Positions 12,661 to 24,976 of a stretch of 64,000 bases of DNA are shown here, piece after piece (position 1 is the first letter of the stretch; each line of letters starts with the position of its first letter). The translations under genes and the position numbers were made by a program. The notes beneath the pieces are model-generated. The model searched no databases and had not been told where the DNA came from. It saw only the letters and a program-made list of their open reading frames with translations. The stretch is from an uncultured delta proteobacterium (lineage in GTDB: Bacteria > Desulfobacterota > Binatia > UBA9968): positions 256,001 through 320,000 of the forward strand of contig CAVUZH010000019.1 of assembly GCA_963745835.1 (NCBI GenBank), given 5' to 3'.

Positions 12661-13647
12661 TCACCGCTCCAGCTTGAATAGTGTTCTCACGAAATCTTTG
12701 ACGGCAATCCGCGCTGCGCCCGCCGCTGCCTCGTTGTAGCCGGTGTGCGGGTCGGTTTGAATGCACGGGTCCTTCCAGGAGAAGCGCTCGCCGGATTCGG
12801 CGTGGACTATCGTGCCGAGCGGTTCTTCCTTGAGCTTGCACGCGCGGAAGCTTTGCGAGCCCTTCGAGATCGTCGGAACCTTATTGCCAAGCGGATTATC
12901 AAAGCTGTGATGCGCGTCCGGATACTCGGTCAGCACGGCATCGCGCCCGGCAGCACGCAATCGTTCAAAATAAGCCCGGCACGGCGCCACGGGCGTGTAG
13001 TCGTCGGCCGCGCCGTGAAACTGTCGTATGGGCGCGGCGCCCAGGTCGGTGTCGCCAATATACGTAGCAGAGCAGCCGGCATAAAAGGGAATGTGGGCGA
13101 TGAAAGCAACCCGCGGGTTCCACATCTGCTGAAATCTTTTCATGCTCGAATAGAGTGCCGAGATGCCGCCCAATGAGAACCCCATGATTGCAATCCGCGT
13201 TGGATCGATTCGCGAATGATTCGCCAGCACGTTGAAGGCGCGATAGGCGTCGAGAATGACGCTATACGAGTTGAACTGCCCAAGATTCGTCGAGGTACGA
13301 ACCAGGCCGCGCCCGGAGAAGCTGTCCACCAAAAATGTCGCGATCCCCATCTCGTTGAAAGTCTTTGCCCAGAGTTCGTCGTGTGCATTGGAGCCGGACG
13401 AGTCATGTTGCAGGATGACTGCCGGCAACCGGCCGCTCGCCGCTTGTGGAAAGCGCAGATGGCCCGCGATGGTCACCGGTTTGCCATCTTGGTCGCCGGT
13501 CAAGAACTGCCGCACTGAAACGATGAGCGTCTGAATGGGGTGTACTTCAGTCCGTGCCGCCAGATCTCTCACGCTCGGGTCGGCAACAGCCGCTTGAACC
13601 CACAGAAGGCTAAGAACCAGACAAGCTGCTCGCACTGCGTGTCTCAT
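12661..13647 (-). CDS. Dienelactone hydrolase family alpha/beta hydrolase, secreted
   Basis: GFSLGG nucleophile elbow, HGAADDYTP, YPDAHHSFD; signal peptide; RBS GGAGG. Confidence 0.88.
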   Translation of the reverse strand: MRHAVRAACLVLSLLWVQAAVADPSVRDLAARTEVHPIQTLIVSVRQFLTGDQDGKPVTIAGHLRFPQAASGRLPAVILQHDSSGSNAHDELWAKTFNEMGIATFLVDSFSGRGLVRTSTNLGQFNSYSVILDAYRAFNVLANHSRIDPTRIAIMGFSLGGISALYSSMKRFQQMWNPRVAFIAHIPFYAGCSATYIGDTDLGAAPIRQFHGAADDYTPVAPCRAYFERLRAAGRDAVLTEYPDAHHSFDNPLGNKVPTISKGSQSFRACKLKEEPLGTIVHAESGERFSWKDPCIQTDPHTGYNEAAAGAARIAVKDFVRTLFKLER

Positions 13648-13798
13648 GGGCCTCCGATCACGCCAGCAAATGATCTGACGCATGGCGGAGAGTAGCCATT
13701 AAGGAAATCTCATGTCAACTGACTTTTCAAACGCGCCGATCGCGCGCGAGCGGTCCGGCGATCAAGCGGATGAGCATTCGGGAGAGCGACCAGAACCC

Positions 13799-13925
13799 AA
13801 ATTGATTCGAGCGTGGACAGTTTAATAATGAAAGCAGCGCTACCCTCGTGTTGGATGCACTTTGAGGCCGCCGCCGAGCGGCGGAGGTTCGGTTGTAGAG
13901 ATCGCGCCGGTCCTTGCCGAAGGCT
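13799..13925 (-). pseudogene. Degraded duplicate of the 3' end of the MBL gene (17503-19230)
   Basis: Aligns with ~17504-17628; shares TGCATCCAACACGAGGGTAG; CIQHEGSAAFIIKL vs CIQHEGSPDFIIRL. Confidence 0.8.
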
Positions 13926-13984
13926 CTTCAAATCCCCGATTAGATTGCGGCGCAAGTTGCTTGGAGTCGGCGTACCCGGACGTC

Positions 13985-15694
13985 TCAATGTTCGAGATGA
14001 AACTGAACACGACAGCGGCTGTCGATGCGGTCGGACTTGACCCGATCAACGTAGTTCTTTATCAGAAAACCCGCCAGCTTCGCGACCGCACGCTCGTCCT
14101 CCAATAGGTCCTCGGCCGTAGGCCGCTGTCTGGGAAATTCCATAGGCTCGCCATCGTAGCGCATATCGATGTCGAGATTGAACTCATCAAAGCTGACTTC
14201 AGCGTCGATCTTGCCGGTGCTTAGCTCCAACGCCCTTGCGGCTTCGATAAATTCGTTCATCGCGGACTTGGCGCGATCGATGACTTCCCTTCTCGCACCC
14301 CAGACTCCTCCCTGCTTCTCCATGAATAAAAATATTTGCTCTGAAGAGTCCGCATGTGGATCGATTTTCAGCTGCGCGCGCTGCCCGATGCCGATACGAA
14401 ACAAGAGATTCAAGAGCAATGCCGACAAGGTGGCCACCGAAAGCGAGGAGCCAAAAACAGGTAAAAACATGGTGTGAACGGTTTGGTAGACCCCAGGCAA
14501 CATGTCGACGCTCAGGCCCAGAATAATCGAAACTCCCACCACGAATGTCTTGCGAGCATCCATCATACGCGAGGTAAGAATCTGAACTCCGGCAACAATC
14601 ATGAAGCTAGCCGCGAAAAACAGAAGAGCCCCGACCACCGGACTCGGCATGATCGCAAACAATACCGTCAGCTTAGGCACGAAGGCCAAGACAATAAGAA
14701 TTCCGCCGCAAGCAAAACCAATCAGGCGGCTCGTCGCACCGGTCGCGATGGACAGACCGACGTTGGCACTGGAGGTCGACTGTCCCATGGTGCCTACTCC
14801 TCCAGACAAGATCACACCACAAGCATCCGCAAGGAGGCCGCCACTGATAGACTGCATATCCGGCCTCTTCCACTCGGCGTCGTTCACTTTCTGACATGTC
14901 GTCAAATCACCCACGGCCTTAAGTGATGACGCCAACGCCGTTACCAGAAAGGGGATCAGCAACGCGCCGCTAAAGGACCAGCTCTCTCCGGGAAAAGACG
15001 GCAGAGCGAGAAGAGAGGCTTGCTCTAAACGACGTAGGTGTTCATCGGTCACTAGACCACTCGCATAAGCGCAGATCGAGCCAGCAGCGATCCCGATCAA
15101 AACACCATACAACCGAAGCCTCGAGGAGCCCCAGACGGTCACGCCAACCATGACGGCGAAAGTAATGGAAGCGATACTCACCGAGAGCGGATCAATGACC
15201 GCGCGTGAATCCTCGATTCCTAAAAACCTAGAGACCGCTACCGGAATAAGCGCGAGACCAACCATCATCACGATTGTGCCGGTGACTTCGGCCGGGAAAA
15301 AGGGACGGAGACGGCCCATGAGACGAGAGAGCACTACACCGAAAAGACCGCTCACCAGAGTCATTCCCGCCAGCAGCGGCAGGCCGCCCGTCTTGACCGC
15401 CAGAATAGAGGCCGGGATATACAGGGGGTGCACCTGCTGAAGACAGAAAAATCCAGATCCTATAGGGCCATGACGTAGCGTTTGCAGGATGGTCGCAATC
15501 CCCATGACGATCATCGAGGCGTGGATCATCCGTTCCGCCTGCGCGGCAAGGATGCCGGTCTCCTGCAGGAGGATCACCGGGTAAACGAAGGCACTGGACA
15601 AGGCGAGGATATGCTGCAGCCCGAGCAAAAGTGAGGTTGTTAGGGGGGGAATTTCCTCAAGTCCATAAATCAAATTGGCGGGCTTCTTTGCCAC
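13985..15694 (-). CDS. NCS2 (xanthine/uracil permease family) transporter with C-terminal degenerate RsbW-like HATPase domain
   Basis: GLQH in TM1, NCS2 signature variant ANVGLSIATG, many TM helices; soluble tail AMNEFIE...YDGEP...LAGFLIKNYVDRV. Confidence 0.88.
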   Translation of the reverse strand: MAKKPANLIYGLEEIPPLTTSLLLGLQHILALSSAFVYPVILLQETGILAAQAERMIHASMIVMGIATILQTLRHGPIGSGFFCLQQVHPLYIPASILAVKTGGLPLLAGMTLVSGLFGVVLSRLMGRLRPFFPAEVTGTIVMMVGLALIPVAVSRFLGIEDSRAVIDPLSVSIASITFAVMVGVTVWGSSRLRLYGVLIGIAAGSICAYASGLVTDEHLRRLEQASLLALPSFPGESWSFSGALLIPFLVTALASSLKAVGDLTTCQKVNDAEWKRPDMQSISGGLLADACGVILSGGVGTMGQSTSSANVGLSIATGATSRLIGFACGGILIVLAFVPKLTVLFAIMPSPVVGALLFFAASFMIVAGVQILTSRMMDARKTFVVGVSIILGLSVDMLPGVYQTVHTMFLPVFGSSLSVATLSALLLNLLFRIGIGQRAQLKIDPHADSSEQIFLFMEKQGGVWGARREVIDRAKSAMNEFIEAARALELSTGKIDAEVSFDEFNLDIDMRYDGEPMEFPRQRPTAEDLLEDERAVAKLAGFLIKNYVDRVKSDRIDSRCRVQFHLEH

Positions 15695-15893
15695 TATCCA
15701 AGCTCTTGGATTGCGCAGCGGCTATAGCGTGACGCGATGAAATATCCACCGTTAAGGATTTTCAGGTACGGGGTCCCTTTGCGCGTGCTCATGCCTTTTT
15801 GTTTCGAGTACAAACGCGCCCTATATTTCAGCGCGTAATCAGAGACAAAAAGAGGCACAAGAACGAAACGGCGCACGATTGCAGATGATGCGA

Positions 15894-16250
15894 TCACTGC
15901 GATGGTGCCAGAGTAGATAGGCCTTCGATTGCCTCGTCGCGCGAGCCGTAAATGAAAATGATGGACGAGAAGCCGGATAAGTCGAACACCTGCCGAATCT
16001 GATCTTGCAGCCCGCACAAGGTAATCTTTCCGTTTGTCGCCTGCAGTCGCTTGGCGGCAAGCAGAAAGACCCGCAGGCCCGAGCTGCTGACGTAATCCAG
16101 CTGAGCAAGGTCGACAACGAGTCTCTGGGCGGCGCCCGAGTCGATCACAGTGAAAATTCTATTCTCGAAGGCTTTTGCTGTCGTGGCATCGAGTTTCCCT
16201 GACAATGCCAATATGACCGCGTCGGCTTTTCTATCTTCACTAATGTCCAT
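15894..16250 (-). CDS. STAS anti-sigma factor antagonist (RsbV/SpoIIAA-like)
   Basis: GKLDATTA, VDLAQLDYVSSSGLRV, VFDLSGF. Confidence 0.93.
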   Translation of the reverse strand: MDISEDRKADAVILALSGKLDATTAKAFENRIFTVIDSGAAQRLVVDLAQLDYVSSSGLRVFLLAAKRLQATNGKITLCGLQDQIRQVFDLSGFSSIIFIYGSRDEAIEGLSTLAPSQ

Positions 16251-16319
16251 GATCTAAGATTGCTGCGTCTTCTGCTTAATGTCCTACACGACCATGTCTC
16301 CAACCTGAGTGCAAGAGTG

Positions 16320-16459
16320 CGCGGTGTCGTCAACGAGCCGTGCTGGAAACGCTTTTCCACCCCGGCCGTCGACGGCGTATTGCAGGGGCTTAACGAAAAT
16401 GGGCGATGACGGCTGGACTGATCGGCAGCATCGTCGTCAGCTTAGACGGCGGGAAATAG
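16320..16459 (+). pseudogene. Degraded copy of the 3' end of the Lin0512 gene
   Basis: 16430-16459 matches 6951-6980 at 27/30 nt, with further similarity upstream. Confidence 0.75.
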
Positions 16460-16488
16460 GGAAACTTCGTATCACCGCATCGAGTCGC

Positions 16489-17280
16489 TTACTGGGCTGG
16501 AGCACTCTGTCTAGGATTATATGCCGGGCTCGTTTGGCTTGGATCTCGTTGCACGAGAGACTGGCGTGGATCTTGACGTGGTGAGTTCTCGGCCGACTTT
16601 GGAGTTGTCGGAGACTGGATATAAGGTTCTGCCTGAAAACTTGCTTCGCGCTCGCCTCCGGTCGTGAACCACCAAATTCCCGCAACGATCAGTGCCACCG
16701 CCACAACCGCCGCGGCAATGAAGCTCATGTTAGGACGCGAGCTCGCGCCAATAACTGACGTCGAACTTTGGTTTCGCTGCTCGGGTCTGATCGGTGGCAC
16801 CGCCGCTCTTTGTGGATTGAATATTTTTTCGATGGCCTCGATCAATCGATCTACGTCTGAATGAAATCTCGAGTCGCTTATCTCGATCGCGTTCCTGCGC
16901 GCGAAAGGCTGCAGAGGCTCCGGCAACGACTTCGCCGAGGGCATCTCGGCGTCCGCGAGAAGAACCGGGATGATAACGGTCTTTAGCTCGAGCCCGGCAA
17001 GAATCTCCAAGCGTACAAAATCTTCCGGATTGTCGAGTCGAGGGACGCCGCTTTTGTCGGTCATCTTGATCCACTCTCGTCCGATGAGGACGAGGAGAAC
17101 GCCCGCTTCCGCCACGCTATGATTGATGGCATCGACGAAATCTTGTCCCGGCTCGATTCTGTCGATGTCCATAAAAACATTATGCTCGCCGTATTTCGCC
17201 GCCAGGCGATCATAGATGCGCCCCGCGTAGGCTGCCGTATCTTGGCGTCGGTAGCTTATAAAGATTGATTGCTTAGACAT
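16489..17280 (-). CDS. TIR-domain protein (TIR_2) with transmembrane helix
   Basis: IFISYRRQD, VFMDIDRIEPGQDF, DFVRLEI (putative catalytic Glu), IIPVL; TM FIAAAVVAVALIVAGIWWF. Confidence 0.9.
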   Translation of the reverse strand: MSKQSIFISYRRQDTAAYAGRIYDRLAAKYGEHNVFMDIDRIEPGQDFVDAINHSVAEAGVLLVLIGREWIKMTDKSGVPRLDNPEDFVRLEILAGLELKTVIIPVLLADAEMPSAKSLPEPLQPFARRNAIEISDSRFHSDVDRLIEAIEKIFNPQRAAVPPIRPEQRNQSSTSVIGASSRPNMSFIAAAVVAVALIVAGIWWFTTGGEREASFQAEPYIQSPTTPKSAENSPRQDPRQSLVQRDPSQTSPAYNPRQSAPAQ

Positions 17281-17502
17281 GATCAGCCGTATTCCGATTA
17301 TCTTTGGCGAAGGATGTCAACCAAATTTTGCTCATTCGGGTGCGCAGGCCAGCTCTTTCTGACGCGCAAAGAGCAGGAGGAATCGAGCGGTGAGTCGTGC
17401 ACGCACAATTCTCTTTGCGAAGCGAGCGTGCGATCACGCAATCCTGTTAGCGCTAACTCATTTGCCGCGGAGTTCTGGCGTTTTTCTTAGAACCGCTCCG
17501 CT

Positions 17503-19230
17503 TCACATTGTTTTGAGCGCCGGCAGTCTGATGATGAAATCAGGACTACCCTCGTGTTGGATGCATTCGAAGCTGCCGCCGAGCCATCCGAGGGTTCTGT
17601 TGTAAAGATCGAGCCGGCGCTTGCCGAACACAGCCGAATCCATCCGTTCGTGGCTTGATAGTCGAATCTCCACCTGGCCCAATGCCACCTGAGTGGCAAT
17701 GCTGATGTGCTTGACGCCCATTCCGGCCATTCCTTCCATCACGTTGGTCAATATATCGCCGAGCCGCTCCGCCCCGATGTTTGCTTTGGTCTCCTGCGCC
17801 GCCGGCGCAAATTCAAACTGGACATCCCGCAGAGGCGAGTACGCCGCCAGCCGGCGCGTGAGAGCCTGCAGAAAAGATTCATCGTCCACCGCTTCCATCA
17901 GATCAGCGGATTCCATCAACGTGGTTTCCTTGGTCTGCTTCAGTAGCTCCGTTATGATCTCGTTTACGGCTCCCGGTTGCTCCGTCTGGAAAAATTGCAA
18001 GCCGCGCACGAGATTCAAGAAATCTTCTAGCCGCCGCTGGGCCCGATCAACCAGAGAGAGATCGAGGATTTGGCGAACGTTTTCCGCGGCCAGAACTTTT
18101 TGCAATGATCTGGCGACTTGAACGCCTTTGAGCACTACGGTCCATTCGGGCACCGGGCTGCCGTTGAACGCTTCCGCGACACGGCGAAAGTCCGAGAGGA
18201 TGCGGTCGATCTGATCGATATCCAAGCTCTCCAGAATCCGGCTGGCCGCGCCGTCCTCCTCCTCGAGCATGGATAGGCAGTAAGACACCGTGTACAGGCG
18301 CCCGGAGAAGATCGTAAGCAGCGCCGCAGTTTCTTCCAGCAGTTCATCCGCGTAAATTTTAAGAGCGCTAATGCGTCCGGCATCCATGAGCGGTACGTCG
18401 GTCAGATTGGAAGCTTCGGTCTCCATCAACCGGAGCTTCTCGCGCATGCTTTGCGCCGAAACGCAGTAACCGTGCCCGGGGCAACACGCGGTGATCTCGG
18501 GTATTTCCAGGAGCCGATCGACGTTGCGCAGTGTTTGCAGAAGATCTGCGTGGTTCCAGCCGTCGAGGCCGCACACTCCAGGGTTGGCGGCGAACGGCAA
18601 ATCGCCAATCATCAACAACGATCCGATTCTTAACGATATGCTGCACGCCGAATGTCCGGGCGTGTGATAAATCTCAAGCCGATTTCCAGCGCCGACAGAA
18701 AGCCATTGGCGTTGCAGCGTTGCGCCATCGGGCAGCGCCATCGGCTCGGTGTAAAGCTCCAATCGTCGGCCGCCGGACAATTCCAGCGCGGCCGGTTCAG
18801 ACGCCGGGCTGGAAGCGAATAGGATTCCGTCGAATCGCGCCGTGCATATTTCAGGGTTCCATGGATAGAGATAAGCGGTAGTCAGGTTGCGGTCGCGGTG
18901 TTTGAGAGCCTCAACTCCCGACTTGTGCGCGAACCGCTTGACTTCCGTACCGGTGGGAAGTTCAAGACCCGCCTCCTGTGAGTGGTCTTGATGGCAATGG
19001 GTAAGAAATAGGAGGACCGGGCGCTGTGACACTGTCAGTGCGTCGGTTAGAATTCGGCTTATCTGCCGCGTCTGCTCGGCGCTGGCGCCGGGATCGACGA
19101 CCACCAGCGCCTCGGGAGCGGAAAAAATGTAGCAATTCGATGAAACGCAGTTGGCCTTAGGTATGATCGGAAAGATGTCGACGGACGAAGTGCCAGAAAC
19201 TTTCTGCCAAACGTTGGCTTCTATCTTCAT
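17503..19230 (-). CDS. MBL-fold metallo-hydrolase with C-terminal degenerate HATPase-like domain
   Basis: THCHQDH, HTPGHS, GD, PGHG; tail RLGDILTNVME...LGGSFE...FIIRLP. Confidence 0.85.
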   Translation of the reverse strand: MKIEANVWQKVSGTSSVDIFPIIPKANCVSSNCYIFSAPEALVVVDPGASAEQTRQISRILTDALTVSQRPVLLFLTHCHQDHSQEAGLELPTGTEVKRFAHKSGVEALKHRDRNLTTAYLYPWNPEICTARFDGILFASSPASEPAALELSGGRRLELYTEPMALPDGATLQRQWLSVGAGNRLEIYHTPGHSACSISLRIGSLLMIGDLPFAANPGVCGLDGWNHADLLQTLRNVDRLLEIPEITACCPGHGYCVSAQSMREKLRLMETEASNLTDVPLMDAGRISALKIYADELLEETAALLTIFSGRLYTVSYCLSMLEEEDGAASRILESLDIDQIDRILSDFRRVAEAFNGSPVPEWTVVLKGVQVARSLQKVLAAENVRQILDLSLVDRAQRRLEDFLNLVRGLQFFQTEQPGAVNEIITELLKQTKETTLMESADLMEAVDDESFLQALTRRLAAYSPLRDVQFEFAPAAQETKANIGAERLGDILTNVMEGMAGMGVKHISIATQVALGQVEIRLSSHERMDSAVFGKRRLDLYNRTLGWLGGSFECIQHEGSPDFIIRLPALKTM

Positions 19231-19272
19231 ACTGTCTCGCGCGCGCCGCAGTCCATGGCCGCGCCTATGGCA

Positions 19273-19587
19273 TCAAGGGCTGACGTCAATGAATGTCGCA
19301 AAGCCGGTGAGATTCAATACGTTCTTAATGGGCAGCGGGACGTTGATAAGTTTCAGGCGTTCGCTGCGTTTTTGCAGCGCCTTTGCCGCCATCAGCAAAG
19401 CGCGCAAGCCGGCGCTGCTCAAATACGAAACCTTCGCCAGATCGAGCTCCACGCCTCCGGCGGAAGTCTCAGTCGCGCGCAACAAGGCCTGTTGCAGCTC
19501 CGGAGCCGTATTACTATCCACGGCGCCGACGACGGAAAGAACAGTCGTCGATTGCGACTGCTGCTCAGTGATTTCCAGTTCCTTCAT
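19273..19587 (-). CDS. STAS anti-sigma factor antagonist
   Basis: GAVDSNTAPEL, DLAKVSYLSSAGLR, VLNLTGF. Confidence 0.93.
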   Translation of the reverse strand: MKELEITEQQSQSTTVLSVVGAVDSNTAPELQQALLRATETSAGGVELDLAKVSYLSSAGLRALLMAAKALQKRSERLKLINVPLPIKNVLNLTGFATFIDVSP

Positions 19588-19650
19588 TTCGCGACCCCTT
19601 TTGATTATGGAACTTGGCTTCTTGAAAAATAGATTTGCGAAATTTAACTG

Positions 19651-20961
19651 CTATGGCGCTTGATCTTCAGTTCTTCTCTTCTCTTTTCGTGTTCCAAAGT
19701 ATACTAGGGCAAGAAGGGCGATATCGTCCCATTGTGGCGCTCCAGCGGCATACTGCCTCACGTCGTCGACCAAATCGCCGATGATTTGTCGCGGATAAGA
19801 ACGACGATTGCTCGTCAGGAATCGCGCGAGCCGCCGATCCGAGTACGGTATCTCGTTTGGGTCCATTGCCTCGGTCACCCCATCCGTGTAAAGCAGCAAG
19901 GCCTCGCCAGGCCCGAGAACCATCCGCCCCGACGCATAGGGACTTTGCTTTACCAGTCCCAGAGCCCTACCGCCGAAATTTAACAACGGACTCACGCCGC
20001 TGTGTTGGAGGTGATAAGGCAGGTTGTGCCCACCGTTACTAAAATCGACCTGACCGGTGCTGATATTCAAGATAGCGCAAAAAAGAGTGACGAACATGCA
20101 GGACTCGTTATCGCCACAGATCTCGGCATTCAAGCGCGCGAGGATTTCACCGGGAGTGCCACCGCTGCCGGCGGTCGCTCTGAACAGCGTCTTGGTCACG
20201 GCCATAAAGAGAGACGCGGGCACTCCTTTGCCGGAGACATCGCCGATAGCAAAGCATAGATGATCGTCATCGATAAAGAAAAAATCGTAGAAGTCTCCTC
20301 CCACTTCTTTCGCCGGTGCAATCGAGGCGAAAATGTCGAATTCGTGGCGCTCTGGGAAGGGAGGAAAAATCTTGGGCAGCATACTCATTTGAATGTCGTG
20401 CGCGAGCTTTAGCGCCTCCTCCATCCGCTCCTTCTCGACATAGGCTTCGATCAAGCGGGCCCGCTCCAGCGCTACTGTTATATGAGCACTTAACCCGCCC
20501 AGAAGCGACTCATCGCTTTCATTAAACACTTCTTGGTCTTTCTTGTTCAGCACCTGAATGACGCCGATCAGCTTATCCCCGTTGCCGATCAGAGGCATAC
20601 AGAGAATGCAACGCGTGCGGTAGCCGGTCTCCTTGTCGAACTTTGGATAAAACCTGGCGTCGGCGTAGGTGTCAGGACAGTTAATCGGCGTACGGGTTTT
20701 GGCCACGGTTCCGGCAATGCCGACCCCGAGCGGAACCCGAATTTCCTTTATTTCAAGCCTTTGCGTAGTCTTGCTCCAAAGCTCGTTACGAGATTCGTCA
20801 TAGAGGAAGAGTGAGGCGCGATCCGCGTCCAAGACTTCGGCGGCTTCCTGCACAATCACTTGCAACAGGTCATCCAATCTAATTTCAGTGGCCAAAGCCT
20901 TCGAAACCCTCAAAAAAGCGTTGAGGTTTCGCGTCTGACGTTGGCTATCGCTGAATGTCAT
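19651..20961 (-). CDS. GAF + SpoIIE (PP2C, RsbU/RsbP-like) phosphatase
   Basis: GAF motifs DARF..DKETGYRTR..LNKK..F...DE; VGGDFYD, GDVSGKG, YTDGVTEA, DDI. Confidence 0.93.
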   Translation of the reverse strand: MTFSDSQRQTRNLNAFLRVSKALATEIRLDDLLQVIVQEAAEVLDADRASLFLYDESRNELWSKTTQRLEIKEIRVPLGVGIAGTVAKTRTPINCPDTYADARFYPKFDKETGYRTRCILCMPLIGNGDKLIGVIQVLNKKDQEVFNESDESLLGGLSAHITVALERARLIEAYVEKERMEEALKLAHDIQMSMLPKIFPPFPERHEFDIFASIAPAKEVGGDFYDFFFIDDDHLCFAIGDVSGKGVPASLFMAVTKTLFRATAGSGGTPGEILARLNAEICGDNESCMFVTLFCAILNISTGQVDFSNGGHNLPYHLQHSGVSPLLNFGGRALGLVKQSPYASGRMVLGPGEALLLYTDGVTEAMDPNEIPYSDRRLARFLTSNRRSYPRQIIGDLVDDVRQYAAGAPQWDDIALLALVYFGTRKEKRRTEDQAP

Positions 20962-21021
20962 TGTGCTTCAGTTTCCCGAAGTAATACCGCGGCGACTTTT
21001 CTGTCTGCGCCAATTTCCATG
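20959..21021 (-). pseudogene. Stub of a STAS gene N-terminus
   Basis: MEIGADRKVAAVLL..* resembles MDISEDRKADAVIL; the start context CCATGATCTAAG is shared with the STAS at 16250. Confidence 0.55.
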
Positions 21022-21105
21022 ATCTAAGGCTCCTCTGTCTTCTTTTTATCGGAAATCAGCAGCATAGCCTGAAGCGAGGAGGATTAAACTAAACCCGAAT
21101 AATAG

Positions 21106-21147
21106 CCGCACAAACATAGCGATGTAGAACATCGGATAAGTTCGAGC
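21106..21147. repeat. 42-bp direct repeat, copy 1 (copy 2 at 22020-22061)
   Basis: CCGCACAAAC..GCGATGTAGAACATCGGATAAGTT.GAGC occurs twice. Confidence 0.85.
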
Positions 21148-21199
21148 ACTGCATAGCCTTCCAGAGGCGCGATCTCAGCCGCGACCTGCGCAGCGGTGA

Positions 21200-21564
21200 T
21201 TCTACCCGGCTGCCCGTTAGCCACAGTGTATAGTCTATATACGATTCCGCTTCCAAATAACTCTCGCGAATTTCCGAGTCATAGACCGCCTCCTGCTCGT
21301 CGCGGACCACGTAGAAGAGCCATATTCGCCGGAAATCTCGATTGGTAAGCTCAAAATTAGAGTAACCGACCATATTATGGTGAGCTGTGAAACCGCGCGC
21401 CAAGGCCAGAAGTCGGTTGGAATCTCATCCGGAAATCGGGCTACGATCCAAAGAACGGTCGTGATGATCAGGGAGCCGGTGGTGAGAATCCAACCTGGTC
21501 GCAAGGACTCAAAACTGGGCAAATGCCTGCTAAGAGCATTTCTGAGGATCACGCCTTTATGCAC
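21200..21564 (-). pseudogene. Internally deleted remnant of a membrane oxidoreductase (ferric reductase-like)
   Basis: N-terminal TM segments (..WPWRAVSQLTIIWSVTL) abut, in another frame, an NAD-binding-like segment RIWLFYVVRDEQEAVYDSEI. Confidence 0.45.
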
Positions 21565-21630
21565 CCCTCCAGGCGCGGGCCCTTTTTTGACGAGCCGGTC
21601 TATCTGGGATTTAGACTGTATAATTTACGG

Positions 21631-21963
21631 CTAGAGATTCTTGATCGCATCGTCGTCAGAGCCGTAAATGGAAAAAACAGACGAAAACCCGGTTATGTCG
21701 AACACTTCTCTGACTGGACTCTGAAGCGAACAGAACAAGATCTTGCCGTTCGCGCTATTGAGTCGCTTGGCCGCAAGGAGAAACACGCGTAATCCTGAAC
21801 TGCTGATGTAGTCGAGCTGCGCAAGATTGATTACAAAGCGCCGCTCGCCCGATTCTATTTGGCTGAGAAGTTTTTCCTCAAACGTCTTCGCTGTCGTAGC
21901 GTCCAGTTTTCCAGAGAGGCCTAGGGTGACAACGTCCGCAGTTTTGCGTTCGGTAATTTCCAT
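21631..21963 (-). CDS. STAS anti-sigma factor antagonist
   Basis: GKLDATTAKTFEEKL, LDYISSSGLRV; close paralogue of 15894-16250. Confidence 0.93.
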   Translation of the reverse strand: MEITERKTADVVTLGLSGKLDATTAKTFEEKLLSQIESGERRFVINLAQLDYISSSGLRVFLLAAKRLNSANGKILFCSLQSPVREVFDITGFSSVFSIYGSDDDAIKNL

Positions 21964-22019
21964 AACCTAAGTCTCCTATCTCCTCATATCATCAGCACAG
22001 GATTTTCCAGCTCTGGTCA

Positions 22020-22061
22020 CCGCACAAACGTTGCGATGTAGAACATCGGATAAGTTGGAGC
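22020..22061. repeat. 42-bp direct repeat, copy 2
   Basis: See 21106-21147. Confidence 0.85.
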
Positions 22062-22097
22062 GCGTGTACCGAAACCTTCTTCGCTAATCTCCATGAC

Positions 22098-24431
22098 CTA
22101 AGCTTTCTGCGTCTTTTTTTTAATCGTCAGCAGATTTCTCTCTCCTTGTCGCTTGTACTCAAGGGCATCCACGATCTTGCGCACAAGATGGATTCCGAGT
22201 CCACCGATCGTCCTTTCGTCCAACAATTTCGCTGTGTCAGGCTCAGGCACATCAAGGGGATTGAAGGGTTGCCCATCATCTTCCACTTCGGCTTTAACCT
22301 CTCCTGCCTGCAAGCTCAGGCGCACTCTGATCTCGTGTTCCCCGCTGTCGGTGTAACCGTAGGAGATAATGTTGGTGAGAATTTCTTCCAGGGCGAGGTT
22401 GAGATCATGCAGGACCTTATCGGATAGTCCAAGTCGGCGGCCGAATTTCGTCAGCGTCTGATTAAAGCGGTCGAGCTCTGAAAGCTTGTTAAAGAGCTTG
22501 ACCTCCACGCGTTCCGTCATTTTCTCCGTGGCCCCGAAATAGCGCAGCGCCAGAACCGTGATATCATCCGATTGCGGCGCTTGGCCAGCGAAATGCCTTA
22601 CATCGCTGACCAAATCGCCAATGATCTGGCGCGGAGCCGAGCTGCGATTCGTTCCTAAGAACTGCTCGAGCCGCTCATCGGAGTAAAGCGTCTTGGCGAG
22701 ATCCATCGCCTCGGTCACGCCATCGGTATAAAGCAGCAAGTCGTCGCCCGGACGAAGAACCATGCGCCCTGTTGCATAGGGGCTTCCCTCCACAAGCCCC
22801 AGGGATATTCCGCCGAAGTTTTCCAAGGGACTAACGCCGTCGCGGCTCAGATAAAACGGCAGATTGTGCCCGGCGTTACTATAATGGACCTCGCCGGTGT
22901 GGATATTCAAGATCCCACAGAAAAAGGTCACGAACATACAGGACTCGTTATCGCGACAAATTTCGGTATTCAACCGCGCGAGGATTTCACCCGGACTGCC
23001 GCCATTGCCGGCGGTCGCGCGAAAGAGAGTTTTGGTGACGGCCATAAACAGCGACGCCGGTACTCCCTTACCGGAGACGTCGCCGACGGCGAAACATAGA
23101 TGATCGTCATCGATGAAGAAGAAATCGTAGAGATCCCCTCCTACCTCTTTGGCCGGTACCAGAGTGGCGAAAATATCGAACTCGCTGCGCTCGGGAAACG
23201 GAGGAAAAATTTTCGGCACCATGCTCATCTGAATATCGTGGGCGATTTGTAGCTCGCTTTCGATGCGTTCCTTCGCCGCGGTGGTTTCCTTGAGGTGCTC
23301 GATGGATTCGTTCAAGCGCCGCGTCATCTCGTTGAACGAGGTCGCAAGAGCGCCAATTTCGTTTTTTGCCGAGATGGCGATTCTTTGAGTGAAGTCACCG
23401 CCTGCGATCCGTCGGGTCATCTCCGTCAAGTCGGCAATGGGCCGGGAAATCGTCTTGGCGCCAAAGATGGCGATCATCGATCCGAGCAACAATACCAACC
23501 CGCTCACCACCATGGCCAACCGAATCCTGTTCTGAATCGCAGCCTGCACGTGATCCGTCGGCAGAGTGACCAGAATTGTTCCACCTTTTAGCTCTCCCCC
23601 CTCTTCGCCGATCGGAACGACGACCTTGAGCAGAGATGCTTCCGAAGAGCTTTCGGTTCGCCCTTCGCGCACCAAGTTGCGCCAATCCGCGAAGTCGGCC
23701 TCGGTCGGCTCCGGAAGCTTGTTGTCTCGGAGCCTCTCCGCATAGTCCACGGTGACCATGTTCTTGTCGAGGACACGGATCGCAATGACGCTTCCGTCGG
23801 ACACCAGCTGGTTGACCAGACGAGTCAGCCCCATGCTCTGCTGCAAGTGTCGGAGCATGGTGGCGTGATAACCGACCTGGACGATGCGCGGCTTATCCAC
23901 CCCCGCGACCCCCACGTACTTGAAAACCTGCGTGTCGATTTCGCGCTGGCGCGCCTCCTGGACGACAGCTTTGCTCTTGCCGGTGAGCAGAGGCCAGAAG
24001 GCGTGAGCCTGGGGTTGCCGCTCCCGATCCGGACTGAACGTGAAGTCTACTTCCGTATTATTTCTTAAGTAAGCATGACCCTTCTCGTCGGTAATCCAGA
24101 TTTCGTCCAGCACCGTGTCGTCGGCAATTTGTTTTAATCGCCGGTTGATTTCCTTCGCGCCGACTCCTGCCGCCTCACCCAGAGCTACCAAATGCGCAGC
24201 GATCGTGGCCTCGACGATCATCTGCTCACCAATCGCTTTCTCGAGATCGCTGGTCACTTGCGCGCCGAAGGCCGCGCTACGAGCCAAGAGCCTGGCGATG
24301 ACCACACCCTGAGCTTCGCTTTCAGCGAGCAATGCCCGGCGCGAGCCCCAAACCACGACTCCCGCGGTGGCGAAGACCGCGACGACGAGCAACAGGGTGA
24401 CCATTAAAAGCGTTTGAGTCTTGATCGTCAC
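22098..24431 (-). CDS. Membrane sensor (Cache-like)-HAMP-SpoIIE phosphatase-RsbW-type kinase fusion
   Basis: Two TM helices, HAMP (NEIGALATSFNEM), PP2C motifs, intact HATPase_c_2 (EEILTNII, DDGQPFNP, GGLGIHLV); GTG 24431 with RBS AAGGAG. Confidence 0.92.
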   Translation of the reverse strand: MTIKTQTLLMVTLLLVVAVFATAGVVVWGSRRALLAESEAQGVVIARLLARSAAFGAQVTSDLEKAIGEQMIVEATIAAHLVALGEAAGVGAKEINRRLKQIADDTVLDEIWITDEKGHAYLRNNTEVDFTFSPDRERQPQAHAFWPLLTGKSKAVVQEARQREIDTQVFKYVGVAGVDKPRIVQVGYHATMLRHLQQSMGLTRLVNQLVSDGSVIAIRVLDKNMVTVDYAERLRDNKLPEPTEADFADWRNLVREGRTESSSEASLLKVVVPIGEEGGELKGGTILVTLPTDHVQAAIQNRIRLAMVVSGLVLLLGSMIAIFGAKTISRPIADLTEMTRRIAGGDFTQRIAISAKNEIGALATSFNEMTRRLNESIEHLKETTAAKERIESELQIAHDIQMSMVPKIFPPFPERSEFDIFATLVPAKEVGGDLYDFFFIDDDHLCFAVGDVSGKGVPASLFMAVTKTLFRATAGNGGSPGEILARLNTEICRDNESCMFVTFFCGILNIHTGEVHYSNAGHNLPFYLSRDGVSPLENFGGISLGLVEGSPYATGRMVLRPGDDLLLYTDGVTEAMDLAKTLYSDERLEQFLGTNRSSAPRQIIGDLVSDVRHFAGQAPQSDDITVLALRYFGATEKMTERVEVKLFNKLSELDRFNQTLTKFGRRLGLSDKVLHDLNLALEEILTNIISYGYTDSGEHEIRVRLSLQAGEVKAEVEDDGQPFNPLDVPEPDTAKLLDERTIGGLGIHLVRKIVDALEYKRQGERNLLTIKKKTQKA

Positions 24432-24886
24432 AAGATTTCTCCTTCGCCTTTCATTCGTTCCGGGCCCAGTCAAGCCACATCGCGAATCAAAAAAAAATAG
24501 CCCGATTTTTAAGTGCGACGGCACCAGGTTCAAAACGTTCAATCCGGTCTATCGTCGCTGCGCTATTCAGGACAAGCGCTAGCAAATAATCCTCATTGCG
24601 GGCAAGCGCGAAAACTGGCGCGACTCGGAATCGAGAAAATTGAAAGAGATCTGGAGCCGCTTTCGCGGGTAATGACGGCTGTGAGCGCCGGGATATTCCA
24701 CGGGATTTCTCGAACAGACCAGTACCATCTCGTTTACTCATTCCACTAAGCTCGCGCGTGATTGACACCTCGTCGCTTGAGCGTTATAGGTCGGCTCAGA
24801 AAAGGTTCGTCATGCTTTCTCAGATACAGAGTATGTAAAAACTCAGATCCAAGCTGTTCAAAGAGCTCTTGATGCGCGCCGCGCGA

Positions 24887-24957
24887 CAGGGTCCAGGGTC
24901 AGTACGTCAGCGCGAGGCGGTTGTTGCACGGGGCCTTTTTTGCGGCCTGAATCCCTG
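24887..24957 (+). promoter_or_regulatory. Candidate structured 5' leader RNA
   Basis: CAGGG..CAGG pairs with CCTG..CCCTG and encloses a CAGC/GTTG hairpin; ends 7 nt before the RBS GGAGG. Confidence 0.3.
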
Positions 24958-24976
24958 CTTAATAGGAGGCAATGTC

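What the first reader, a model, noticed from the sequence alone, without database searches (positions are those of the whole stretch)
13985..24431. Sigma-less partner-switching cluster whose apparent outputs are a transporter and a hydrolase (top candidate for a new system)
Seen: eight co-oriented genes. They are sensor-HAMP-PP2C-RsbW, STAS, GAF-PP2C, STAS, MBL with an HATPase-like tail, TIR-TM, STAS, and NCS2 with an RsbW-like tail. All three STAS proteins keep the phosphoacceptor Ser motif (YxSSxGL). No sigma factor gene is present. Known: RsbU/RsbV/RsbW and SpoIIE/SpoIIAA/SpoIIAB modules work by a STAS protein binding an HATPase domain depending on its phosphorylation; variants with non-sigma outputs exist (SypE-SypA, BtrUVW, SiaABC). 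Inference: two non-regulatory proteins here carry degenerate HATPase-fold tails and each is encoded directly downstream of a STAS gene. STAS phosphorylation state may therefore switch solute uptake and hydrolysis post-translationally. I do not know of a characterised system with this architecture.
Basis: partly seen in the sequence, partly recalled or inferred. Interest (0 to 1): 0.88.

Follow-up and report, generated by a model that had tools for sequence, protein, structure and literature searches.

The report
Transporter with built-in dead anti-sigma kinase
A soil bacterium's phosphorylation-switch gene cluster has no sigma factor and instead ends in a nucleobase-type transporter carrying a dead copy of the switch's kinase, a widespread bacterial and archaeal arrangement that suggests the switch controls transport directly.

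Summary
The eight co-oriented genes are real: HAMP-PP2C-RsbW kinase, three STAS proteins, GAF-PP2C, an MBL hydrolase with a tail, TIR-TM, and an NCS2 permease with a tail.

**NCS2 tail.** It folds like the anti-sigma kinases UsfX, RsbW and SpoIIAB (Z 13.3-14.8). Its profile matches neighbouring RsbW kinases (hhalign 96.7%). It has lost the N-box Asn, the G1 Asp and the G2 glycines, so it is a pseudokinase.

**Distribution and linkage.** The tail family has 900 clusters at 50% identity, always C-terminal where listed. STAS, PP2C or RsbW genes lie beside it in 41 of 77 loci from many bacterial phyla and from Methanothrix, which has no sigma-70 hit. None lie beside 40 tail-less NCS2 loci.

**Binding.** A complex model puts the STAS phospho-serine on the tail: 0.83 against a best control of 0.43. 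This may be recalled from solved SpoIIAA-SpoIIAB complexes.

**MBL tail.** It resembles a histidine-kinase DHp-CA module, not RsbW. It is linked to STAS only in close relatives.

**TIR.** It is lineage-specific.

**Verdict.** This is a new variant of partner switching with a transporter as output. Binding and effect on transport are untested.

The parts
22098..24542 (-). Sensor protein of 814 aa: N-terminal membrane/extracytoplasmic region, HAMP (362-412), PP2C/SpoIIE phosphatase (478-668), and an RsbW-type Ser kinase domain (687-809) with intact ATP-binding motifs. An alternative GTG start lies at 24431.
   Evidence: Pfam hits. Translation. In alignment A6 the N-box E/N, the G1 D-x-G and the G2 GGxG are all present.
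21631..21963 (-). STAS1, a single-domain anti-sigma-antagonist-type protein of 110 aa. It is 63% identical to STAS3.
   Evidence: Pfam STAS 1.8e-21. TIGR00377 at 84.8 bits, over its cut-off. Alignment.
20962..21630 (-). Remnant of a ferric-reductase-like membrane oxidoreductase gene. It has an internal deletion of about 835 bp near position 21356.
   Evidence: blastn and tblastn to L052, L047 and L064. The intact 480-501-aa genes carry Ferric_reduct + FAD_binding_8 + NAD_binding_1. Contigs from two other studies bridge the junction (records 22 and 30).
19651..20961 (-). GAF-PP2C phosphatase, 436 aa.
   Evidence: Pfam GAF 1e-21 and SpoIIE 1.5e-46.
19273..19587 (-). STAS2, 104 aa and 30% identical to STAS1. 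It is the STAS type that precedes the MBL gene in close relatives.
   Evidence: Pfam STAS 4.7e-15. The STAS2-MBL pair is seen in L045, L050 and L052.
17503..19230 (-). MBL-fold hydrolase (residues 1-267, metal-binding motif intact) fused to a helical region and a C-terminal domain resembling a histidine-kinase CA domain (about 413-575).
   Evidence: Pfam Lactamase_B. H78, H80, D82, H83, H193, D210 and H253 are invariant in 8 sequences. AF2 model has pLDDT 74.5. Foldseek and VIA-align match histidine-kinase DHp-CA and CA domains at Z 14.0-14.8.
16489..17280 (-). TIR-domain protein of 263 aa with one predicted membrane segment. It is a lineage-specific insertion.
   Evidence: Pfam TIR_2 4.3e-14. 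Partial ThsB-like matches. Found only in L045 among the 77 related loci.
15894..16250 (-). STAS3, 118 aa, with putative phospho-acceptor S56.
   Evidence: Pfam STAS 2.8e-22. Alignment to SpoIIAA 1th8_B/1tid_B. S55 and S56 are invariant in 31 co-located STAS proteins.
14393..15694 (-). NCS2 (SLC23-type) permease domain of the 569-aa fusion protein.
   Evidence: Pfam Xan_ur_permease 7e-57. NF037981 at 68.6 bits, over its cut-off of 40.
13985..14392 (-). C-terminal RsbW-like pseudokinase domain of the NCS2 protein (residues 435-569), plus the stop codon.
   Evidence: AF2 pLDDT 89.8. Foldseek match to SpoIIAB at E 6.4e-7. VIA-align Z 13.3-14.8 to UsfX, Rv1364c, RsbW and SpoIIAB. hhalign to RsbW kinases at 96.7%. 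Modelled complex with STAS3 scores 0.83 against a best control of 0.43.

Best explanation
This is a branched partner-switching (RsbU/RsbV/RsbW-type) phospho-switch whose main output is a membrane transporter, not a sigma factor.

**Shown by sequence**
- There is one intact RsbW-type Ser kinase, the C-terminal domain of the 814-aa HAMP sensor.
- There are two PP2C phosphatases. One sits in the same sensor protein; the other is coupled to a GAF domain.
- There are three STAS proteins that keep the phospho-acceptor Ser.
- The NCS2 permease ends in a domain homologous to RsbW kinases. That domain has lost the ATP-binding Asn, Asp and Gly residues, so it is a pseudokinase.

**Inferred**
- The kinase and the phosphatases set the phosphorylation state of the STAS proteins.
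- Unphosphorylated STAS of the STAS1/STAS3 type docks on the permease's cytoplasmic pseudokinase domain, in the way SpoIIAA docks on SpoIIAB, with the phospho-acceptor Ser at the centre of the interface. Phosphorylation releases it.
- Docking changes transport activity. Whether it activates or inhibits is unknown.
- STAS2 may act in a like way on the neighbouring MBL hydrolase through its degenerate histidine-kinase-like tail. This branch is much less certain.

The TIR-TM gene is a recent passenger. A ferric-reductase-like gene that once followed STAS1 has decayed.
For: 1. **Domains.** Pfam and NCBIfam hits.

2. **Kinase.** The N, G1 and G2 boxes are intact in the 814-aa protein.

3. **NCS2 tail.**
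- The AF2 model has pLDDT 89.8.
- The best Foldseek hits are SpoIIAB, RsbW, UsfX and the Rv1364c RsbW domain, down to E 6.4e-7, with 21 hits at E <= 1e-3.
- An independent all-against-representatives search gives UsfX Z 14.8 (rmsd 2.2, 117 aligned), Rv1364c 13.6, RsbW 13.3, SpoIIAB 13.3 and SiaB 10.9. Histidine-kinase CA domains reach at most 8.7.
- hhalign of the tail profile against 11 RsbW kinases gives 96.7% probability and E 3.2e-10 over 128 columns. The N-box Glu is kept (E481). Asn is replaced by Ala, the G1 Asp by an invariant Tyr, and GGLG by AKLA.

4. **Family.** There are 900 clusters at E <= 1e-3. In all 150 listed the domain is at the C-terminal end, and full-length members are 543-614 aa.

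5. **Linkage.**
- Of 77 tail-bearing loci, 41 have a STAS of at most 170 aa, a PP2C or an RsbW kinase in the flanks held. STAS is in 37, PP2C in 36 and kinase in 24. A STAS on the same strand within 3 kb is in 29.
- Of the 45 loci with at least 3 kb on both sides, 25 have STAS or PP2C.
- There are at least four different gene orders.
- Of 40 tail-less NCS2 loci (776 kb), 0 have any such gene under the same search.

6. **Archaea.** By record title 15 loci are archaeal, and 10 of them are linked. The Methanothrix chromosome behind L106 has McrA and no Sigma70_r2 match.

7. **Own genome.** There is no sigma-70 gene on the contig. There is no SigB/F/G-type match over the cut-off; the best is 136 bits against 234.

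8. **Complex model of tail and STAS3.**
- It scores 0.83, against 0.43 for the best of 3 controls.
- The mark was reached by 116 of 157 solved complexes and by 2 of 215 mismatched pairs. These counts hold only roughly, because my own alignments were used.
- The runs agree in at least 96% of contacts, and the partner's pLDDT is at least 88.
- STAS3 residues 55-57 touch tail residues 46-47 (N480, E481), 50 and 103-110.

9. **Fused STAS next to the tail gene.** In three loci a 710-aa enzyme carrying an internal STAS domain sits directly upstream of the tail-bearing NCS2 gene.
Against: - Of the 77 tail-bearing loci, 36 show no partner-switching gene in the flanks held. In the window's own phylum sample only 2 of 12 loci do. 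One of the 41 linked loci (L082) rests on a weak 80-aa hit.
- The 77 loci are the best 80 matches to the window's tail and were found through one peptide pattern, so they are not an unbiased sample.
- The residues in the modelled interface are no more conserved than the rest: mean top-residue frequency 0.58/0.62 against 0.61. The most conserved tail residues (W465-R468, F502-D508, Y513, G515, H566, H569) lie outside that interface. The tail therefore has another conserved role, still unexplained.
- Complexes of this kind are solved (SpoIIAA-SpoIIAB, RsbV-RsbW, RsfB-UsfX), so the model's pass may come from memory.
- Pfam HATPase_c_2 does not hit the tail. The tail profile's best match to a solved-structure sequence is RsbW at E 0.28, which is not significant.
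- MBL branch: distant homologues show no linkage in 0 of 7 loci, the tail is of histidine-kinase type rather than RsbW type, and binding was not modelled.
- No experiment of any kind bears on this.
Confidence: 0.6

Rival explanations
1. The tail is a structural, dimerising or ligand-binding domain of one NCS2 subfamily and does not bind STAS. The partner-switching genes next to it regulate something else, or only share an operon with it.
For: - 36 of 77 tail-bearing loci, and 10 of 12 in the same phylum sample, have no STAS or PP2C neighbour.
- The most conserved tail residues lie outside the modelled STAS interface, and the interface residues are not specially conserved.
- RsbW and SpoIIAB are dimers and NCS2 transporters work as dimers (recalled knowledge), so a dimerising role is plausible.
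Against: - Linkage is 41 of 77 against 0 of 40 in the control.
- Linkage recurs in several gene orders and in archaea.
- The tail is homologous to the very kinase family that binds STAS.
- The modelled complex passes its controls.
- STAS-fused enzymes lie next to the gene in three loci.
Confidence: 0.2
2. The module is a conventional partner switch. The RsbW domain of the 814-aa protein holds a sigma factor or another transcription regulator encoded elsewhere. The permease and the hydrolase are merely regulated or co-transcribed genes.
For: - The kinase domain has all its motifs and matches RsbW/SpoIIAB models.
- The genome has 19 sigma-70-family matches.
- The fused PP2C-RsbW protein Rv1364c appears among the fold matches. 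Its link to a sigma factor is recalled, not checked here.
Against: - No sigma gene lies on the contig.
- No SigB/F/G-type sigma passes its cut-off in the genome.
- The same STAS-PP2C(-RsbW)-NCS2-tail clusters occur in Methanothrix, where no sigma-70 match is found.
- This reading does not explain why the permease carries an RsbW homologue.
Confidence: 0.1
3. The NCS2 tail is still an active, unorthodox Ser kinase that phosphorylates the neighbouring STAS. This would supply the kinase that is missing from clusters with only PP2C, STAS and NCS2.
For: - Many loci, including Syntrophales and some Methanothrix, have PP2C and STAS next to the tail-bearing NCS2 gene but no RsbW gene within the flanks held.
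- The N-box Glu is kept.
- Several charged residues in the tail are invariant and unexplained.
Against: - The Mg-ATP-binding Asn, the adenine-binding Asp and the G2 glycines are all replaced.
- Genomes G240 and G296, which have such kinase-less clusters, encode a separate STAS + RsbW pair elsewhere.
Confidence: 0.05
4. The cluster is an anti-phage defence island built around the TIR protein and the MBL-fold enzyme, which might act as a nuclease.
For: The TIR domain gives partial matches to ThsB-type models: PADLOC 3.8e-11 and NCBIfam ThcB4 1.3e-12, covering residues 3-65 only.
Against: - None of the other six proteins or ORFs scanned hits PADLOC: the MBL protein, the NCS2 protein, the 814-aa sensor, GAF-PP2C and two small ORFs. 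The three STAS proteins were not scanned.
- The TIR gene is in only 1 of 77 related loci.
- The MBL domain's nearest solved relatives by sequence are small glyoxalase-II-like hydrolases.
Confidence: 0.03

Closest known systems
RsbU-RsbV-RsbW and SpoIIE-SpoIIAA-SpoIIAB partner-switching modules
   Same: All three parts are present: a PP2C phosphatase, a STAS protein with a conserved phospho-acceptor Ser, and a GHKL Ser kinase of the HATPase_c_2 type. The NCS2 tail's nearest structures are these kinases.
   Different: No sigma factor is encoded nearby, and no SigB/F/G-type sigma was found in the genome. A second copy of the kinase fold is catalytically dead and fused to a 14-helix permease. The cluster holds three STAS proteins and two phosphatases but only one live kinase.
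SLC26/SulP anion transporters with a C-terminal STAS domain
   Same: Both join a 7+7 inverted-repeat transporter (SLC4/23/26 share this fold, per the abstracts of PMC6497670 and PMC5539350 in the search listings) to a cytoplasmic C-terminal domain taken from the partner-switching toolkit.
   Different: SLC26 carries the antagonist (STAS) fold within the same protein. Here an SLC23-type permease carries the opposite partner, the anti-sigma kinase fold, and the STAS protein is encoded separately and can be phosphorylated.
MlaB-MlaF (a STAS protein bound to the ATPase of the Mla ABC transporter)
   Same: A single-domain STAS protein acts on a transporter after translation (abstract of PMC7367683 in the search listing).
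   Different: MlaB binds an ABC ATPase, not a GHKL-fold domain. I know of no PP2C/kinase cycle for it (recalled). STAS3 matches the MlaB model only weakly, at 26.6 bits against a cut-off of 90.
Partner switches with non-sigma outputs (SypE-SypA, SiaABC(D), BtrU/V/W, HsbR-HsbA)
   Same: STAS phosphorylation controls something other than a sigma factor. SiaB appears among the tail's structural matches at Z 10.9.
   Different: In those systems the outputs are soluble regulators or enzymes (recalled; the review PMC8256260 was searched for passages only). None has the kinase fold fused to a transporter. The review has no occurrence of 'xanthine', 'permease' or 'pseudokinase'.
Rv1364c-type multidomain PP2C-RsbW(-STAS) fusion proteins
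   Same: The 814-aa sensor fuses PP2C and RsbW domains in one chain, as in entry 3ke6, which is among the fold matches.
   Different: Here the sensor input is a membrane/HAMP module, STAS is not fused, and the presumed target is a transporter tail.

Membership tests
RsbW/SpoIIAB-type GHKL Ser kinases (Pfam HATPase_c_2): NCS2 tail | Bergerat-type alpha/beta fold closest to anti-sigma kinases | tested here: met
   Foldseek: SpoIIAB at E 6.4e-7, TM 0.67-0.73. VIA-align: Z 13.3-14.8 to UsfX, Rv1364c, RsbW and SpoIIAB, against at most 8.7 for histidine-kinase CA domains.
RsbW/SpoIIAB-type GHKL Ser kinases (Pfam HATPase_c_2): NCS2 tail | Match to the family's sequence model | tested here: inconclusive
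   Pfam gives no hit at E <= 0.01. The tail profile's best solved-structure match is RsbW at E 0.28. hhalign against 11 co-located RsbW kinases gives 96.7% and E 3.2e-10.
RsbW/SpoIIAB-type GHKL Ser kinases (Pfam HATPase_c_2): NCS2 tail | ATP-binding residues: N-box Asn, G1 Asp-x-Gly, G2 Gly-x-Gly | tested here: not met
   In the hhalign columns, Asn is replaced by Ala (A485), Asp by Tyr (Y513, invariant) and GGLG by AKLA. Only the N-box Glu (E481) and the G1 Gly (G515) remain.
RsbW/SpoIIAB-type GHKL Ser kinases (Pfam HATPase_c_2): NCS2 tail | Binds a STAS antagonist | not testable with these tools
   Only a model is available: 0.83 against a best control of 0.43. The pass may be recalled from solved complexes.
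Partner-switching system (RsbU/V/W type): the cluster | STAS protein with a conserved phospho-acceptor Ser | tested here: met
   All three STAS proteins have the Y-x-S-S-x-G-L motif. S56 of STAS3 aligns with the Ser that is mutated in 1tid_B.
Partner-switching system (RsbU/V/W type): the cluster | PP2C phosphatase and an RsbW-type kinase with intact motifs | tested here: met
   SpoIIE hits at 1.4e-51 and 1.5e-46, and HATPase_c_2 at 1.3e-26. The kinase motifs are present.
Partner-switching system (RsbU/V/W type): the cluster | A sigma factor as the regulated partner | tested here: not met
   No Sigma70_r2 match on contig C19. No SigBFG match over the cut-off in the genome. A distant or atypical target cannot be excluded.
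NCS2/NAT (SLC23) permeases | Match to the family models | tested here: met
   Pfam Xan_ur_permease at 193 bits, cut-off 27. NF037981 at 68.6 bits, cut-off 40. The TIGR00801 and pbuX models score below their cut-offs, so the substrate is not assigned.
Histidine kinase transmitter (DHp + CA): MBL tail | CA-domain fold | tested here: met
   Model residues 146-308 match VanS, PrrB, WalK and other CA domains at Z 14.0-14.8, rmsd 2.4-3.1, 124-133 aligned. Foldseek gives E about 1e-6 to DHp-CA chains. The model's mean pLDDT is only 74.5.
Histidine kinase transmitter (DHp + CA): MBL tail | Conserved phospho-acceptor His and N/G1/G2 boxes; Pfam HisKA or HATPase_c hit | tested here: not met
   No Pfam hit beyond Lactamase_B. 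No invariant His and no invariant G-box glycines in the tail among 8 sequences; N423 is invariant.
Metallo-beta-lactamase-fold hydrolases | H-x-H-x-D-H motif plus the downstream His, Asp and His metal ligands | tested here: met
   H78, H80, D82, H83, H193, D210 and H253 are invariant in 8 homologues. Pfam Lactamase_B at 44.5 bits.
Thoeris-like TIR defence | Full-length ThsB-type TIR protein with a ThsA-type partner | tested here: inconclusive
   Only residues 3-65 match the ThsB/ThcB4 models, far below the NCBIfam cut-off (47 bits against 220). None of the six other cluster proteins or ORFs scanned hits PADLOC; the three STAS proteins were not scanned.

The most novel reading that the evidence does not exclude
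A cross-domain class of SLC23-type transporters, in bacteria and archaea, is gated after translation by partner-switching phospho-signalling. A fused dead RsbW domain acts as the receiver for a phosphorylatable STAS protein supplied as a separate protein. This is the mirror image of SLC26 transporters, which carry the STAS domain in the same chain. In the window's lineage the same logic has branched: one kinase and two phosphatases serve three STAS proteins, each paired with its own effector. Those effectors are a permease, an MBL hydrolase with a dead histidine-kinase module, and formerly a NOX-like reductase. In sigma-less archaea this would be the native role of STAS/PP2C/RsbW genes.
Probability: 0.45. 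Interest if true: 0.82.

Novelty: new variant of a known kind. Interest (0 to 1): 0.74.

Why it matters
Partner switching is a textbook way of controlling sigma factors, and a handful of non-sigma outputs are known. If this finding is right, it adds three things.

- **A direct transporter output.** The output would have a recognisable, searchable signature: NCS2 plus a C-terminal RsbW-like pseudokinase, in 900 sequence clusters.
- **A role in archaea.** It would explain STAS/PP2C/RsbW genes in archaea, which have no sigma factors.
- **A link to SLC26.** What the STAS domain does on SLC26 transporters is still unsettled. Here a transporter of the same fold carries STAS's binding partner instead, with STAS encoded separately.

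The family has members in cultured organisms, including two copies in Sporomusa silvacetica DSM 10669 and relatives in Methanothrix. The hypothesis can therefore be tested at the bench.

Tried and rejected
- **Pfam on the tails.** No HATPase model hits either tail at E <= 0.01.
- **Tail profile against solved-structure sequences.** The best match is RsbW at E 0.28, which is not significant.
- **Protein Atlas by features.** One lead only: a cluster in which 15% of members carry HATPase_c_2, score 0.93. I treat it as a lead, not as evidence.
- **The search for related loci with alignment A1.** It was re-run with the closer subset A5.
- **The same refusal for the MBL-tail alignment A3 on metagenome contigs.** The wider gene context of the MBL-tail family therefore rests on 7 distant and 3-4 close loci only.
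- **Riboswitch or other Rfam family in 13400-25000.** None at E <= 1.
- **Promoter and terminator scans.** Counts were at background: 9 against 5.8 +/- 2.4, and 15 against 12.5 +/- 3.5. They say nothing about operon structure.
- **Defence-island reading.** Only the TIR protein hits PADLOC, and only in part.
- **Earlier notes of this scan.** Nothing for this place.
- **Literature searches.** No paper in the held library joins NCS2, xanthine or uracil permease, or SLC23 with anti-sigma, STAS or partner-switching in the sense meant here. The two papers that hold both 'NCS2' and 'anti-sigma' are unrelated by title and abstract. The NAT/NCS2-hound paper has no occurrence of 'C-terminal', 'extension' or 'fused'.
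- **RNA-library contigs from soil runs X15 and X16.** They cover scattered pieces of most genes at 90-99% likeness. Contigs cannot show transcription, strand or co-transcription, so I draw nothing from them.
- **Is the modelled interface specially conserved?** It is not.

Full report
**What is there.**

| Coordinates | Product | Key evidence |
|---|---|---|
| 22098-24542 | 814-aa sensor: HAMP, PP2C (SpoIIE), RsbW-type HATPase_c_2 | SpoIIE 1.4e-51; HATPase_c_2 1.3e-26 |
| 21631-21963 | STAS1 | Pfam STAS |
| 19651-20961 | GAF-PP2C | Pfam GAF, SpoIIE |
| 19273-19587 | STAS2 | Pfam STAS |
| 17503-19230 | 575-aa MBL-fold protein | Pfam covers only residues 28-238 |
| 16489-17280 | TIR_2 protein with one hydrophobic segment | Pfam TIR_2 |
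| 15894-16250 | STAS3 | Pfam STAS |
| 13985-15694 | 569-aa NCS2 permease | Pfam covers only residues 21-399 |

All three STAS proteins carry Y-x-S-S-x-G-L. STAS3 aligns with SpoIIAA of entries 1th8/1tid at E 3.7e-15. Its S56 falls on the Ser that is Ala in the 1tid variant.

The window is G000:C19:256001-320000, in a 7.28-Mb assembly of 25 contigs. The nearest named records are 'Candidatus Binatia' MAGs.

None of the genome's 19 Sigma70_r2 matches lies on this contig. No match to the SigB/F/G model passes its cut-off; the best scores 136 bits against 234.

The genome has one other partner-switching cluster, on contig C25. It also has no sigma-70 match on its contig.

**The NCS2 tail is a dead RsbW.**

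An AlphaFold2 model of the last 145 residues, built on 13 homologues, has pLDDT 89.8 and pTM 0.82.

- Foldseek against the PDB ranks SpoIIAB first (1th8_A, E 6.4e-7, TM 0.67/0.73). RsbW, UsfX and the RsbW domain of Rv1364c follow.
- A search that does not depend on Foldseek gives the same families on top. UsfX scores Z 14.8 (rmsd 2.2, 117 aligned), Rv1364c 13.6, RsbW 13.3, SpoIIAB 13.3 and SiaB 10.9.
- Ordinary histidine-kinase CA domains reach 8.7 at most.

At sequence level Pfam sees nothing. The tail profile's best solved-structure hit, RsbW, is not significant at E 0.28.

A profile-profile comparison gives a clearer answer. The tail was compared with 11 RsbW-type kinases taken from this window and from loci beside NCS2-tail genes. 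The result is 96.7% probability and E 3.2e-10 over 128 columns.

In those columns the kinases' invariant residues map onto the tail as follows:

- E-x-x-x-N becomes E481-x-x-x-A485.
- D-x-G becomes Y513-x-G515, and the Tyr is invariant.
- GGLG becomes AKLA.

So the tail is a homologue that has lost its ATP-binding residues. By contrast, the kinase domain of the 814-aa protein keeps all of them.

**The fusion is a large family.**

- A word-indexed search with the tail found 491 proteins. All 120 listed carry PF00860, and most are 569 aa.
- A profile search of 1.84 billion representatives found 900 clusters at E <= 1e-3, of which 564 are at E <= 1e-10. In all 150 listed the domain is at the very C-terminus. 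Full-length members are 543-614 aa, and the shorter ones look like fragments from contig ends.
- In a sample of 401 genomes of the window's phylum, 13 have the tail, in 7 of 255 genera.
- Across one genome per species, 320 stretches encode a relative.
- The 77 loci kept carry titles from many groups:
  - Bacterial: Binatia, Syntrophales/Smithella, Vicinamibacteria, Verrucomicrobiota, Ignavibacteria, Armatimonadota, Dehalococcoidales, Nitrospirae, Bacillota (including two copies in cultured Sporomusa silvacetica) and Proteobacteria.
  - Archaeal: Methanothrix, Methanophagales and MAGs labelled Halobacteria.

**Linkage to partner-switching genes.**

I searched all ORFs of at least 60 aa in these 77 loci with the window's domains, using phmmer at E <= 1e-3. 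One search gives these counts:

| Feature in the flanks held | Loci (of 77) |
|---|---|
| Any of small STAS, PP2C or RsbW kinase | 41 |
| STAS of at most 170 aa | 37 |
| PP2C | 36 |
| RsbW kinase | 24 |
| STAS on the same strand within 3 kb | 29 |

Of the 45 loci with at least 3 kb on both sides, 25 have STAS or PP2C. One of the 41 (L082) rests on a weak 80-aa hit.

Gene order varies between lineages:

- Methanothrix has STAS-PP2C-RsbW-NCS2tail, or the same without RsbW.
- Syntrophales have PP2C-STAS-NCS2tail, with gaps of 0-48 bp.
- Ignavibacteria have NCS2tail-PP2C-STAS.
- Armatimonadota and Binatia have NCS2tail, then a PP2C-RsbW fusion, then STAS.

In three loci (L047, L056, L062) a 710-aa protein lies 177-224 bp upstream of the NCS2 gene. 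For L047 and L056, Pfam shows it has an internal STAS domain, a PLP-enzyme domain and an ACT domain.

As a control I took 40 NCS2 genes without the tail (open frames of 407-507 aa) from the same phylum sample, about 9.4 kb on each side where the contig allowed, 776 kb in total. The same search found no STAS, PP2C or RsbW hit in any of them.

Two cautions apply. The 77 loci are the best matches to the window's tail and were found through one peptide pattern. Related genomes are also not independent. In the window's own phylum sample only 2 of 12 tail loci, both in one genus, have the neighbours. I scanned 131 of 141 neighbour ORFs against Pfam there; the ten dropped were at locus edges.

**Archaea.** By record title 15 of the 77 loci are archaeal, and 10 of these are linked. 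The 3.0-Mb Methanothrix chromosome behind L106 has McrA and no Sigma70_r2 match. In that genome the STAS-PP2C pair next to the NCS2-tail gene cannot act through a sigma-70 factor.

**Model of the complex.**

I folded the tail (135 residues, alignment of 71 rows) with STAS3 (alignment of 31 co-located STAS proteins).

- The complex scored 0.83, 0.84 and 0.82 in three runs, against 0.43 for the best of three controls.
- That mark was reached by 116 of 157 solved complexes and by 2 of 215 mismatched pairs. These counts hold only roughly, because my own alignments were used.
- The runs agree in at least 96% of contacts, and the partner's pLDDT is at least 88.
- The lowest-error contacts join STAS3 S55/S56 to tail positions 46, 47 (E481), 50, 106, 107 and 110.
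- This is the SpoIIAA-on-SpoIIAB docking mode, with the phospho-acceptor Ser against the N-box helix.

Complexes of this kind are solved, so the pass shows likeness and may be memory. It does not show binding.

One result counts against the model. The interface residues are no better conserved than the rest of the tail: 0.58 and 0.62 against 0.61. The most conserved residues (W465-G-A-R468, F502-DEFNL-D508, Y513, G515, H566 and the C-terminal H569) lie outside the interface. The tail therefore has a further conserved role that I cannot explain.

**The MBL protein.**

- Eight homologues keep the MBL metal ligands H78, H80, D82, H83, H193, D210 and H253. By sequence the nearest solved relatives are small glyoxalase-II-like hydrolases.
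- A model of residues 268-575 has pLDDT 74.5. It shows long helices followed by an alpha/beta domain.
- That domain matches histidine-kinase CA domains at Z 14.0-14.8, rmsd 2.4-3.1, with 124-133 residues aligned.
- Whole DHp-CA chains align over about 200 residues.
- No RsbW or SpoIIAB chain is in the top 50.
- No His and no G-box glycine is invariant in the tail.

The tail is therefore a degenerate histidine-kinase-like module.

The family is in 8 of 401 genomes of the phylum. None of the 7 distant loci has a STAS or PP2C neighbour. The STAS2-MBL pair is kept in close relatives:

- It appears in L045, L050 and L052, and L054 has an MBL-tail fragment.
- Several contig lengths recur in the hit lists, which hints that both genes lie on the same contigs.

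STAS control of the hydrolase is therefore possible but weakly supported. I could not model that pair.

**Other parts.**

The TIR-TM gene is found only in the nearest relative, L045. It gives only partial ThsB-like matches. I read it as a recent insertion.

The 669-bp gap between STAS1 and GAF-PP2C matches two separated pieces of a gene in relatives. That gene encodes a 480-501-aa protein with Ferric_reduct, FAD_binding_8 and NAD_binding_1 domains and follows the STAS1-type gene there. About 835 bp are missing in the window near position 21356. Contigs from two other soil studies bridge the junction (records 22 and 30). The deletion is therefore real and not an artefact of this assembly.

**Mechanism proposed.**

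Shown:
- The parts list.
- The tail's homology to RsbW and its loss of catalytic residues.
- The gene linkage.

Inferred:
- The single live kinase and the two PP2C phosphatases set the phosphorylation of the STAS proteins. One phosphatase is under a membrane/HAMP sensor and the other under a GAF domain.
- Unphosphorylated STAS of the STAS1/STAS3 type docks on the permease's cytoplasmic pseudokinase domain and changes transport. The direction of the change is unknown.
- Phosphorylation releases the STAS protein.

Clusters without a local kinase could use one encoded elsewhere. Genomes G240 and G296 have a separate STAS-RsbW pair.

**Novelty.**

Five full-text searches found no paper linking NCS2, xanthine or uracil permeases or SLC23 with anti-sigma, STAS or partner switching. 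For these I saw listings with titles and abstract starts only. I also searched two papers for passages:

- A review of STAS-only proteins (PMC8256260) has no 'permease', 'xanthine' or 'pseudokinase'.
- The NAT/NCS2 classification paper (PMC6308229) has no 'C-terminal', 'extension' or 'fused'.

Subscription journals are not covered by the library.

I rate this a new variant of a known kind. The signalling logic is partner switching. What appears undescribed is the output module: a transporter-fused pseudokinase that is widespread in bacteria and archaea.

Noticed in passing
window 20962-21630 (minus strand): The 'gap' between STAS1 and GAF-PP2C is a decayed ferric-reductase/NOX-like gene (Ferric_reduct + FAD_binding_8 + NAD_binding_1 in relatives L052:6993-8435 and L047:242-1747). 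It has an internal deletion of about 835 bp near 21356. Contigs of two other soil studies bridge the junction.
   Followed up: yes
L047:2027-4159, L056:722-2857, and L062:235-2364 (L062 by phmmer only): A 710-aa protein with a nitrile-hydratase-alpha-like region, an internal STAS domain, a PLP-dependent enzyme domain and an ACT domain lies 177-224 bp upstream of the tail-bearing NCS2 gene. It may be an enzyme tethered to the transporter through STAS.
   Followed up: partly
window 13988-14392 (P0001 residues 465-468, 502-508, 513, 515, 566, 569): The most conserved residues of the tail (WGAR, FDEFNLD, Y, G and two His, one of them the last residue) lie outside the modelled STAS interface. Their role is unexplained; it could be contact with the membrane domain, or a ligand or metal site.
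   Followed up: partly
G000 contig C25:179949-182663 (outside the window): The genome has a second partner-switching cluster. It holds two STAS hits, a 146-aa RsbW, a 391-aa frame with both SpoIIE and HATPase_c_2, and a 781-aa frame with HATPase_c_2. No sigma-70 match lies on that contig either.
   Followed up: no
L046:8729-12264, L047:4383-7932, L054:7564-11152, L097:8729-14389: Tail-bearing NCS2 genes occur as pairs in several genomes: tandem in three of these loci, and 2.1 kb apart in L097. The cultured Sporomusa silvacetica has two unlinked copies (L060, L080).
   Followed up: no
window 14700-14760 region of P0001 (protein motif A-N-V-G-L-S-I-A-T-G): The NAT signature motif, recalled as [Q/E/P]-N-x-G-x-x-x-x-T-[R/K/G], has Ala at its first, specificity-linked position. 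The xanthine, uracil and RutG equivalog models all score below their cut-offs. The substrate is therefore open.
   Followed up: no
window 13400-24900: Near-identical DNA occurs in soil and rhizosphere metagenomes from at least five studies, holding 0.69-0.94 of the sampled words. Soil RNA-library contigs at 90-99% likeness cover scattered parts of most genes, which does not show transcription.
   Followed up: partly
window 12661-13683 and 24869-25840: The cluster is flanked by alpha/beta-hydrolase genes: a dienelactone-hydrolase-like gene downstream on the same strand, and an Abhydrolase_1 gene upstream on the opposite strand. No link to the cluster was examined.
   Followed up: no
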